This document shows positions 52,417 through 52,481 of a DNA stretch of 64,000 nucleotides, piece by piece. The notes under the pieces are model-generated. The model searched no databases. It saw nothing but the letters and a program-made list of their open reading frames with translations, and was not told the origin of the DNA. The DNA comes from an uncultured Actinomycetota bacterium. GTDB taxonomy: Bacteria; Actinomycetota; Actinomycetes; Frankiales; Frankiaceae. Position numbers and translations under genes: made by a program. How positions within the stretch are numbered: the first letter of the stretch is position 1; every line of letters begins with the position of its first letter. Where the stretch lies: contig CAVVZN010000014.1 in NCBI GenBank assembly GCA_963752645.1, positions 502,955 through 566,954 on the forward strand, in the 5' to 3' direction.

Positions 52417-52481
52417 GCGCTCGCCGCCAGGCCGTTACCCGACCATGGCTCCCCTCTGTGTCATCCCTGAAGGAGCGGGGC

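What the first reader, a model, noticed from the sequence alone, without database searches (positions are those of the whole stretch)
52444..52463. Identical 17-nt motif ggctcccctctgtgtca abutting the downstream ends of two different IS110 elements; it doubles as an SD plus start
The 17-mer occurs at about 52447-52463 (immediately outside the left IR of element A) and at 56952-56968 (immediately outside the 3' end of element C). Unrelated sequence lies on the far side in both places.

On the minus strand it reads tgacacagaGGGGAGcc-ATG. At 56951 this drives a 111-aa ORF. At 52446 the ATG is followed by a stop after 3 codons.

Either two different IS110 subfamilies target the same short sequence (a REP-like or specific-gene-start target), or one copy is a relic of a duplicated junction.
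Basis: seen in the sequence. Interest (0 to 1): 0.55.

Follow-up and report, generated by a model that had tools for sequence, protein, structure and literature searches.

The report
Shared 17-mer is an IS end
The repeated 17-base motif is the conserved outermost tip of one kind of RNA-guided insertion sequence; a second, different insertion sequence has used its own guide RNA to insert just behind that tip, so the motif appears to flank two unrelated elements.

Summary

It is not a shared target or a junction relic. It is the right-end (RE) tip of a widespread actinobacterial IS110-type element, to which window elements B and C belong.
- In over 120 loci from many genera the motif leads straight into this element's RE, while the outer flank varies.
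- A homologous uninterrupted locus (L208) lacks both the IS and the 17-mer.
- On the transposase strand it reads TGA-CAC-AGAGGGG-A-GCC: the usual transposase stop codon, the site matched by the element's bridge-RNA donor guide, and the crossover bases. The donor guide covaries with tip variants in Rhodococcus and Rathayibacter.

The copy at 56955 is simply C's own end. The copy at 52447 is B's end. It is cut off from the rest of B by element A (52464-54018), an IS1111-type element nested 14 nt inside B with a TGA duplication.

A's 3' non-coding RNA carries guides complementary to TGACACA and CCTTGA. In 22-39 relatives these guides covary with the different flanks. The same A-in-B nesting recurs in other genomes.

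The "SD plus ATG" reading is not supported. This is a new example of a known mechanism.

The parts
52437..52446 (-). Right target half of element B (ATGGTCGGGT on the minus strand), directly outside the 17-mer
   Evidence: It is complementary to B's own right target guide (RTG 55413-55428; 8-9 nt run). It is the inverted repeat of B's left target half at 55538-55547.
52447..52463 (-). 17-mer copy 1: the outermost tip of B's right end (TGACACAGAGGGGAGCC), separated from the rest of B by element A
   Evidence: Exact match. The same tip-A-rest-of-RE arrangement is seen in L008 and L084. The flank outside it matches B's RTG.
52464..54018 (-). Element A: IS1111-type IS (1555 bp) nested inside B's right end. 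It is flanked by a TCA/TGA duplication (52461-52463 and 54019-54021).
   Evidence: Boundaries come from alignment with L008, L052, L075 and L084 and from 80 metagenome relatives.
52469..52482 (.). A's subterminal inverted repeat, RE side (GAAGGAGCGGGGCC). Its partner is at 53999-54012.
   Evidence: A perfect 14-bp inverted repeat lying 5-6 nt from the ends. It is conserved across relatives.
52891..53934 (-). A's transposase (347 aa, identical to P0001)
   Evidence: Pfam PF01548 and PF02371. NCBIfam NF033542 scores 204 bits against a cutoff of 140.
52798..52867 (-). A's target-binding loop in the 3' non-coding RNA. RTG UGUGUGUCA lies at 52846-52854 and LTG UCCUUCUUGA at 52812-52821.
   Evidence: The RTG pairs with TGACACA of the 17-mer. 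The LTG matches the left flank CCCTCCTTGA when G-U wobble is allowed. The surrounding stems show 92% pairing and 6 compensatory pairs, with 0 of 500 shuffles reaching the observed score. The guides covary with the flanks in 22 relatives.
52745..52759 (-). A's donor-guide-like segment GGCGAAGGGAUGACC, a copy of A's RE tip AGGGA plus the TGA core
   Evidence: It covaries with RE-tip variants (AGGGA, AGGAA, ATGGA) across relatives.
54022..55533 (-). The rest of element B (IS110-type): RE interior, frameshifted transposase (about 54059-55326) and left end
   Evidence: About 78% identical to C over the aligned stretch. Pfam and NCBIfam assign it to the IS110 family. The RE interior begins AGGAG..., as in other loci directly after the 17-mer.
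55347..55466 (-). B's bridge-RNA guides: LTG 55451-55466, RTG 55413-55428, LDG (CAAGAGGGGU) 55369-55384, RDG (GAAGUAGC) 55347-55364
   Evidence: The LTG equals ACCATCGGC, the left junction. The RTG is the reverse complement of AGCCATGGT, the right junction beside 17-mer copy 1. The LDG equals AGAGGGG of the 17-mer. The RDG is the reverse complement of GCTACTT, the LE tip.
55534..55547 (-). Left target half of B (ACCCGACCATCGGC on the minus strand)
   Evidence: It matches B's LTG over 9 nt and is the inverted repeat of 52437-52446.
56955..56971 (-). 17-mer copy 2: C's own right-end tip. Its TGA (56969-56971) is the stop codon of C's transposase frame.
   Evidence: Homology to the empty site L208 starts exactly outside the 17-mer.
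56955..58353 (-). Element C: IS110-type IS (1399 bp). Its transposase is broken into three frames (56969-57604, 57627-57863, 57829-58137).
58172..58287 (-). C's bridge-RNA guides: LTG 58272-58287, a degenerate RTG position 58242-58256, LDG 58194-58209, RDG 58172-58189
   Evidence: The LTG matches the left flank TATCCGGC over 8 nt. The RTG no longer matches the right flank (run of 0), consistent with a decayed copy.
58354..58360 (-). Left target half of C (ATCCGGC on the minus strand)
   Evidence: In L208 it is contiguous with the right half: ATCCGGC|GCTCTACGCGATC.
56616..56897 (-). Conserved small membrane-protein ORF downstream of C. Its real start is probably the ATG at 56895-56897, not the ATG at 56949-56951.
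   Evidence: Homologues P0122 and P0123 (81-82% identity) begin at M19 of the 111-aa ORF. L208 has CTACG where the window has TATGCG.

Best explanation
The 17-mer is the conserved outer tip of the right end (RE) of an IS110-type, bridge-RNA-guided insertion sequence that is common in Actinomycetota. Window elements B and C are two diverged copies of it.

Read on the transposase strand, the tip is TGA-CAC-AGAGGGG-A-GCC:
- TGA is the usual stop codon of the transposase.
- AGAGGGG is the 'left donor' site, which has the same sequence as the donor guide in the element's own bridge RNA.
- The last 2-3 bases are the crossover region.

At 56955 the motif is simply C's end.

At 52447 it is B's end. 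A different element, A (IS1111-type, with subterminal inverted repeats and a 3' guide RNA), has inserted by RNA-guided recombination into TCTTGA|CACAGA. That position is immediately after the TGA and 14 nt inside B's end, and the TGA is duplicated. This pushed B's last 17 nt 1.56 kb away from the rest of B.

Shown by computation: the element boundaries, the nesting, the guide-flank and guide-tip complementarity and covariation, and the empty site.

Inferred: that the RNAs are made and direct recombination as they do for IS621, ISEc11 and ISEc21.
For: (1) Linkage to the RE. Of 124 instances, 79 are followed by a B-type transposase on the expected strand and a further 17 carry RE motifs. The outer flank varies.

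(2) Empty sites. Joining C's two flanks with the IS and the 17-mer removed gives ATCCGGC|GCTATGCG. This aligns colinearly with metagenome locus L208 (ATCCGGC GCTCTACG; 83% identity over 378 nt). The predicted target CTCATCGGCCATGAG occurs uninterrupted in L023 and, with one mismatch, in L016.

(3) Donor-guide covariation.
- Window type: tip AGAGGGG with guide CAAGAGGGGU, and LE tip GCTACTT with guide AAGUAGC.
- Rhodococcus L205: tip AGAGAGGC with guide AAGAGAGGC, and LE tip CCAACTT with guide AAGUUGG.
- Rathayibacter L207: tip AGAGAGGC with guide GAGAGAGGC, and LE tip CCAGCTT with guide AAGCUGG.

(4) Target guides match the flanks. In 32 B/C-type copies the LTG run averages 7.16 against a permuted mean of 5.11. 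The RTG run averages 5.94 against 4.82. In both cases 0 of 5000 permutations reach the observed value. B's RTG pairs with the junction next to 17-mer copy 1, and its LTG pairs with the far junction at 55534-55547.

(5) Nesting recurs. In L008 and L084 an A-type element lies between the 17-mer and the continuation of a B-type RE, with TCA on both sides. L052, L075 and L164 also show the A-17-mer junction.

(6) A-type guides.
- Right flanks differ among 39 relatives (20 distinct 8-mers).
- A 9-nt guide about 390 nt from the RE covaries with the right flank: run 7.64 against a permuted mean of 4.79 and a maximum of 6.23.
- The left guide run is 6.23 against 4.33, maximum 5.27.
- The loop is framed by stems with compensatory changes.

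(7) The guide order matches published rules. In A the top-strand match lies 5' of the bottom-strand match, and in B/C the order is reversed (PMC11187229).

(8) The transposase frame stops at the tip's TGA in 54 of 82 copies.
Against: - No RNA or transposition data exist for these elements. All function is inferred from sequence.
- The donor guide matches AGAGGGG but not through the crossover bases.
- Donor and target appear to differ at one 'core' position (CC against GC). This does not fit the identical-core rule described for IS621.
- C's RTG no longer matches its flank.
- Some copies, such as L115, do not match their own guides well.
- The genome scan required an exact 17-mer, so conservation of the tip was sampled without bias only in six plasmid hits (four carry clear 1-2-nt variants, two shortened ones) and two extra copies within the loci.
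Confidence: 0.9

Rival explanations
1. The 17-mer is a host sequence, such as a REP-like repeat or a conserved gene start, that both IS subfamilies independently target.
For: A really does target it. IS110-family elements are known to target repeats (PMC11187229, PMC11208160).
Against: The empty site L208 and the uninterrupted predicted targets lack the 17-mer. Among instances with enough flanking sequence, nearly all show B/C-type RE sequence or an A-type end next to the motif; the one clear exception is a Planctomycetota locus (L037). B/C target guides match the sequence outside the 17-mer, and their donor guide matches the 17-mer itself.
Confidence: 0.03
2. One copy is a relic of a duplicated IS-flank junction, produced by segmental duplication or a tandem IS.
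For: Solo RE tips and tandem tips do exist elsewhere (L010, L017, L018, L109, L111).
Against: Identity between the two window sites ends exactly at the 17 nt on both sides. Site 1's outer flank is the guide-matched right target half of B. What lies behind A continues as B's RE.
Confidence: 0.03
3. The 17-mer belongs to element A as well: two subfamilies share the same terminal sequence.
For: The 17-mer abuts A-type ends in six independent loci.
Against: In the 39 A-type copies with both flanks, the sequence after AGGGA|TGA differs (20 distinct 8-mers; TGACCTGC the commonest) and covaries with the guide. Where sequence is available, A's other end is followed by the remainder of a B-type RE.
Confidence: 0.02
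4. The motif is kept because it acts as a Shine-Dalgarno sequence, with a flank ATG, to express the gene downstream of the insertion.
For: GAGGGGAG resembles a Shine-Dalgarno sequence. 60 of 124 copies have an ATG within 6 nt. The 111-aa ORF at site 2 has homologues.
Against: Only 14 of 60 ATG-adjacent ORFs reach 80 codons. Homologues of the site-2 ORF start 18 codons further in, and the empty site has no ATG there. The ATG follows from the guide-specified target half C-ATGAG. GC3 of the 111-aa ORF is 67%, against 88-94% in the window's clear genes.
Confidence: 0.05

Closest known systems
IS110-group bridge-RNA / seekRNA elements (IS621, Durrant et al. 2024, PMC11208160; ISEc21, Siddiquee et al. 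2024, PMC11187229)
   Same: - B and C have a DEDD plus PF02371 transposase, a long 5' non-coding left end and no long inverted repeats.
- An internal-loop RNA carries a left target guide of the same sense as the left flank and a right target guide complementary to the right flank.
- A second pair of guides matches the two IS tips.
- A short RE tip acts as the donor site.
   Different: - The left and right target guides are near-identical (CUCAUUU...), so targets are small palindromes.
- The transposase frame runs to 14 nt from the IS end.
- The donor guide does not visibly pair through the crossover bases, and donor and target seem to differ at one core position.
- No junction promoter was found by a simple scan.
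IS1111-group elements that home to other mobile elements (IS4321/IS5075 into Tn21-family terminal repeats, Partridge & Hall 2003, cited in PMC11208160), and ISEc21 (IS110 family) into IS3-family transposase genes (PMC11187229)
   Same: - A has 14-bp subterminal inverted repeats, a 347-aa transposase and a 427-nt 3' non-coding region holding the guides.
- It inserts in a single orientation at a fixed position.
- Its target is a conserved functional sequence of another transposable element.
   Different: - The target here is the donor-recognition tip of a related RNA-guided IS (IS110 type).
- The insertion point falls right after the host's stop codon and leaves the host's donor site intact.
- The catalytic-finger motif reads GLTPKHHESD rather than GL-P----S(G/T)G.
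IS900/IS901/IS902/IS116 group, reported to insert between a ribosome-binding site and a start codon (recalled from memory; two literature searches found no paper)
   Same: Actinobacterial IS110-family elements with an SD-like sequence and CATG at the junction.
   Different: Here the SD-like sequence is on the same side as the ATG and belongs to the IS. Whether the IS900 'target' consensus likewise includes IS-borne bases was not tested.

Membership tests
IS110 group (elements B and C) | DEDD/RuvC-like N-terminal domain plus PF02371 C-terminal domain transposase | tested here: met
   PF01548 and PF02371 are found in B and in the C fragments. NF033542 scores 154 bits for the B fragment against a cutoff of 140. 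The motif GTAPLDASSG fits G--P----SG.
IS110 group (elements B and C) | Long non-coding region upstream of the transposase, short RE, no long subterminal inverted repeats | tested here: met
   The LE is about 210-225 nt (55327-55533; 58138-58353). The transposase frame ends 14 nt from the RE end in 54 of 82 copies. The tips TACTTGTTTC and ...GAGGGGAGCC are not complementary.
IS110 group (elements B and C) | Guide RNA with target-matching segments, the bottom-strand match lying 5' of the top-strand match | tested here: met
   The LTG is at about LE position 67 and the RTG at about 100. Permutation tests give 0 of 5000 for both. The order is as described for ISEc21.
IS110 group (elements B and C) | Donor-binding guides that match both IS tips | tested here: met
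   The LDG matches AGAGGGG and the RDG matches AAGUAGC. Both covary with the tips in L205 and L207. Pairing through the core is not seen.
IS110 group (elements B and C) | Circular intermediate with a promoter formed across the RE-LE junction | tested here: inconclusive
   The RE tip holds TTGACA 11 nt from the end (tnp strand ...TTGACACAGAGGGGAGCC). However, no sigma-70-type site was found at the LE-RE junction in L111. Circles cannot be observed with these tools.
IS1111 group (element A) | Subterminal inverted repeats of 7-17 bp | tested here: met
   A perfect 14-bp repeat, GAAGGAGCGGGGCC, lies 5 nt (RE side) and 6 nt (LE side) from the ends. It is conserved in about 70 relatives.
IS1111 group (element A) | Long non-coding region downstream of the transposase; transposase of 330-350 aa | tested here: met
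   427 nt lie between the stop (52891) and the RE end (52464), against 84 nt upstream of the transposase. The transposase is 347 aa.
IS1111 group (element A) | seekRNA/bridge RNA with the top-strand match 5' of the bottom-strand match, both overlapping at the insertion point | tested here: met
   The RTG (52846-52854) lies 5' of the LTG (52812-52821) on the RNA, and both include the TGA core. The rule is stated.
IS1111 group (element A) | C-terminal motif GL-P----S(G/T)G | tested here: not met
   A and five relatives read GLTP(K/R)HHESD: the serine is kept, but D replaces G. This is a deviation in one residue. The other features are met.
IS1111 group (element A) | Transposase clusters phylogenetically with IS1111 relatives | not tested
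   No ISfinder reference set was available. A and B share only 30% identity over 161 aa.
REP-like or gene-start host repeat | Occurs on its own in host DNA, independent of an IS | tested here: not met
   The empty sites lack it. Most instances with enough flanking sequence lead into B/C-type RE sequence or an A-type end.

The most novel reading that the evidence does not exclude
A-type IS1111 elements may be hyper-parasites that ride inside IS110-type elements. Their guide RNA places them exactly after the host IS's stop codon and 14 nt inside its right end. The host's transposase frame, donor-guide site (AGAGGGG) and crossover bases therefore all stay intact. The host's bridge recombinase could then still excise and insert the B+A composite, carrying A as cargo.

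The natural 55-nt mini-element L029 (36 nt of RE plus 19 nt of LE) shows that short tips suffice for insertion at a guide-matched target. Published minimal ends point the same way: RE 16 bp for ISEc21 and a 22-bp donor for IS621.
Probability: 0.25. Interest if true: 0.6.

Novelty: new member of a known kind. Interest (0 to 1): 0.35.

Why it matters
The finding turns a puzzling shared motif into a worked example of how the two branches of the IS110 family read DNA with guide RNAs.

One branch (IS110 type) keeps a nearly invariant 17-nt tip. That tip is at once a stop codon, a donor-guide site and a crossover region.

A member of the other branch (IS1111 type) has programmed its target guides against exactly that tip.

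This matters in three practical ways:
- It gives natural guide/target and guide/donor pairs for an actinobacterial bridge-recombinase clade.
- It shows that IS ends can be set from guide complementarity plus an empty site. The seekRNA authors flag such ends as often mis-annotated.
- It raises a testable case of one RNA-guided transposon nesting non-destructively in another.

It does not reveal a new mechanism.

Tried and rejected
- Rfam scan of 51800-59000: only sub-threshold hits to the Mycobacterium sRNA families ncrMT1302 and Ms_IGR-2, inside the RE of B and C. No bridge-RNA family was reported.
- Junction promoter: the TTGACA in the tip suggested a -35 box, but the promoter scan of the LE-RE junction in L111 found nothing. 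The idea is kept only as speculation.
- First A-type alifold on a wide alignment gave no useful consensus. It was replaced by a trimmed module alignment with an explicit structure.
- First regex extractions of guides picked wrong sites and were redone.
- The strict 'revcomp 8-mer starting at the T of TGA' test under-counted matches, because some guides are offset by 1 nt. It was replaced by run-length scoring that allows wobble.
- Literature searches for the IS900 RBS-ATG target consensus found no paper.
- The look-up of P0001 yielded only a 1.6-kb Logan contig, so the source organism was not identified.
- A palindromic or terminator-hairpin target was considered as the reason for the inverted flanks. 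It is only partly explained by the near-identical left and right guides (notebook, 'unexplained').

Full report
**Observation**

The 17-mer GGCTCCCCTCTGTGTCA occurs exactly twice in the window, at 52447-52463 and 56955-56971. No further copies appear with up to two mismatches, and about 0.02 matches are expected by chance.

On the minus strand, site 1 reads TGACACAGAGGGGAGCC-ATGGTCGGGTAA. Site 2 reads TGACACAGAGGGGAGCC-GCT-ATG..., which opens a 111-codon ORF.

**The three elements**

All three IS110-family transposase genes lie on the minus strand.
- Element A (52464-54018) has an intact 347-aa transposase. It has perfect 14-bp subterminal inverted repeats (52469-52482 and 53999-54012). A 427-nt non-coding stretch lies 3' of the gene.
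- Elements B and C are about 78% identical to each other over the aligned stretch. Both are frameshifted and have a non-coding stretch of about 220 nt 5' of the gene.
- A and B share only 30% protein identity over 161 residues.

**What the 17-mer is attached to elsewhere**

Nearly all are Actinomycetota, including Micromonospora, Kribbella, Nocardioides, Actinomadura and Dactylosporangium.

I oriented all 124 instances alike. The sequence to the left is variable, with a weak consensus of ...CCGGATCT or ...CCGCTCAT. The sequence to the right is, in most cases, the 3' end of a B/C-type element.
- 79 instances are followed by a B-type transposase on the expected strand.
- 17 more have the RE motifs but no detectable gene.
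- 5, counting window site 1, are followed directly by an A-type inverted repeat.
- Most of the rest sit at the edge of a fetched block or are truncated remnants.

In 42 complete copies the other end is ...CAATGAAACAAGTA, followed by GCCG.

Hits found without requiring the 17-mer were plasmid copies retrieved by homology to the RE interior. They show close variants of the tip:
- GGCGCCTCTCTGTGTCA in Mycobacterium avium and Rhodococcus
- GGCACCCCTCTGTGTCA in Nocardioides
- shorter forms in Pseudonocardia and Rathayibacter

**The 17-mer is inside the IS: four independent lines**

First, an empty site. The small ORF next to C has two metagenome homologues. On the contig of one of them (L208), homology to the window begins exactly at the base outside the 17-mer. 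The 7 nt before that point in L208 (ATCCGGC) equal the 7 nt outside C's other end. Joining C's two flanks, with C and the 17-mer removed, gives a sequence colinear with L208 across the joint.

Second, the target predicted from junction halves and guides, CTCATCGGCCATGAG, is found uninterrupted in L023. It also occurs with one mismatch in L016, in genomes that carry the IS.

Third, the left end of B/C-type elements encodes the four guide segments expected of a bridge RNA (definitions in PMC11208160). For B these are:
- LTG CCACCAUCGGCU. It has the sense of the left junction ACCATCGGC|T.
- RTG CAACCAUGGCU. It is complementary to the right junction AGCC|ATGGT, which lies beside 17-mer copy 1.
- LDG CAAGAGGGGU. 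It has the sense of AGAGGGG in the 17-mer.
- RDG GAAGUAGC. It is complementary to GC|TACTT at the left tip.

Across 32 copies, the target guides match their own flanks better than any of 5000 permutations.

The donor guides covary with the tips in distant relatives:
- Rhodococcus L205: tip AGAGAGGC with LDG AAGAGAGGC, and left tip CCAACTT with RDG AAGUUGG.
- Rathayibacter L207: tip AGAGAGGC with LDG GAGAGAGGC, and left tip CCAGCTT with RDG AAGCUGG.

Fourth, L029 holds a 55-nt mini-element made of 36 nt of RE (17-mer first) and 19 nt of LE. It sits between typical target halves. L111 shows an LE abutting the 17-mer directly.

**Anatomy of the tip**

The transposase frame stops at the TGA that opens the 17-mer in 54 of 82 copies. 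The tip therefore reads: TGA (stop), CAC, AGAGGGG (left donor), A, then GCC (crossover region). The very last base cannot be assigned to either the IS or the target.

**Site 1 explained**

In L008 and L084 an A-type element sits between the 17-mer and the continuation of a B-type RE (...GTGTCA|A-type|TCA AGACACCGCCGGGAGG...ggcgggtccgggaag). TCA is present on both sides. The window has the same layout. After A's end at 54018 come TCA and then AGGAGGGC..., a B-type RE interior. Other loci show that interior directly after the 17-mer.

B's own guides match the sequence outside 17-mer copy 1 (52437-52446) and the sequence outside B's left end (55534-55547).

So B spans 52447-55533 and is interrupted by A. 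Without A, B would be 1529 bp, like the roughly 1520-1555-bp subgroup.

**How A got there**

Eighty metagenome relatives of A (67-78% protein identity) share the same architecture...TGA|TGCGAT-IR...IR-AGGGA|TGA.... Their right flanks differ. TGACCTGC is the commonest 8-mer, and L164 has TGACACAGAGGGGAGCC followed by ATGAGCGGA.

About 390 nt from the RE end, each element carries the reverse complement of its own right flank. About 30 nt further on is a copy of its left flank. Both include the TGA.

Contiguous pairing with the element's own flank:

| Guide | Observed run | Permuted mean | Permuted maximum |
|---|---|---|---|
| Right (RTG) | 7.64 nt | 4.79 | 6.23 |
| Left (LTG) | 6.23 nt | 4.33 | 5.27 |

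The two guides form the two sides of an internal loop. Three helices close the loop: 92% of cells pair, 6 pairs show compensatory changes, and 0 of 500 shuffles reach the observed score.

In the window, the RTG is UGUGUGUCA (52846-52854), which pairs with TGACACA. The LTG is UCCUUCUUGA (52812-52821), which matches CCCTCCTTGA when wobble is allowed.

A further segment, GGCGAAGGGAUGACC (52745-52759), copies A's RE tip plus the core and covaries with tip variants.

The guide order is top-strand match first in A and reversed in B/C. This agrees with the rule published for the IS1111 and IS110 types (PMC11187229).

**The SD-plus-start idea**

- Homologues of the 111-aa ORF begin at its Met19, the window ATG at 56895-56897. 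L208 has no ATG at the position next to the 17-mer.
- Of 60 copies with an ATG within 6 nt of the tip, only 14 open an ORF of 80 or more codons.
- The ATG is part of the guide-specified right target half. Depending on the RTG variant, that half is C-ATGAG or C-AGAT....
- GC3 of the 111-aa ORF is 67%, against 88-94% for the window's clear genes.

**Comparison with the known**

B and C behave as IS110-group bridge-RNA elements and A as an IS1111-group element. The one feature tested and not met is A's GLTPKHHESD, where GL-P----S(G/T)G is described.

Elements of these families that home to other mobile elements are already known. IS4321 and IS5075 insert into Tn21-family terminal repeats, and ISEc21 inserts into IS3 transposase genes.

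What is new here is the particular target, the donor tip of a related RNA-guided IS, and the non-destructive position of the insertion.

**Open points**

- The exact core. The donor appears to read CC where the target reads GC.
- The LDG does not pair through the core.
- Flank palindromes extend beyond the guide length.
- No junction promoter was found.
- Whether the B+A composite moves as a unit.

**Verdict**

The explanation is ordinary bridge-RNA/seekRNA biology seen in a nested pair of elements. I rate it a new member of a known kind, of moderate-to-low interest.

Noticed in passing
L029:6687-6741: A 55-nt miniature element made of 36 nt of the B/C-type right end (17-mer first) and 19 nt of the left end. 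It sits between typical guide-matched target halves, so it is probably a non-autonomous derivative mobilised in trans.
   Followed up: partly
L010:2402-2500; also L017, L018, L082, L109: Solo or tandem right-end tips (the 17-mer plus 20-50 nt of RE) with no transposase nearby. In L010 two such tips lie in tandem, each preceded by ...CATCT. Their origin is unknown: they could be decay products or products of half-site recombination.
   Followed up: no
window 54182-54272 and 57020-57115 (+ strand): Sub-threshold Rfam hits to the Mycobacterium sRNA ncrMT1302 (35 bits against a gathering score of 45), and to Ms_IGR-2. They fall inside the right-end interior of B and C, antisense to the transposase. 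That Rfam family may be built on an IS110-type right end.
   Followed up: no
window 52891-53934 (A transposase); P0002, P0011, P0030, P0076, P0102: The whole A-type clade reads GLTP(K/R)HHESD where IS1111-family transposases are described as GL-P----S(G/T)G. The serine is kept, but the following glycine is aspartate.
   Followed up: partly
window 55550-56950: The 1.4 kb between B and C is 65% G+C, against 71% for the window. It holds only small putative membrane ORFs, one with a weak SLATT_1 hit and one with a weak DUF5708 hit. It may be a foreign islet bracketed by IS copies.
   Followed up: no
window 58762-58790: A 13+13-nt inverted repeat with one G-T mismatch, separated by 3 nt (CGAGCGGTCACCT...GGGTGACCGCTCG), about 400 nt beyond C's left end. 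It scored as a spurious miRNA hit in Rfam.
   Followed up: no
L023:1422-1442 and L016:6289-6309: Uninterrupted small palindromes (TCGCTCAT-CGGCC-ATGAGCGGA in L023; CCGCTCATCGGCCATGACCGA in L016) that match the predicted B/C-type target. The L016 copy lies just downstream of an in-frame-looking TAA; gene context was not checked. The natural targets appear to be short hairpin-like sequences.
   Followed up: partly
B/C-type copies in L001-L120: In 54 of 82 copies the transposase frame runs through the whole right end and stops at the TGA 14 nt from the IS end. This same TGA is the core that A-type insertion duplicates.
   Followed up: yes
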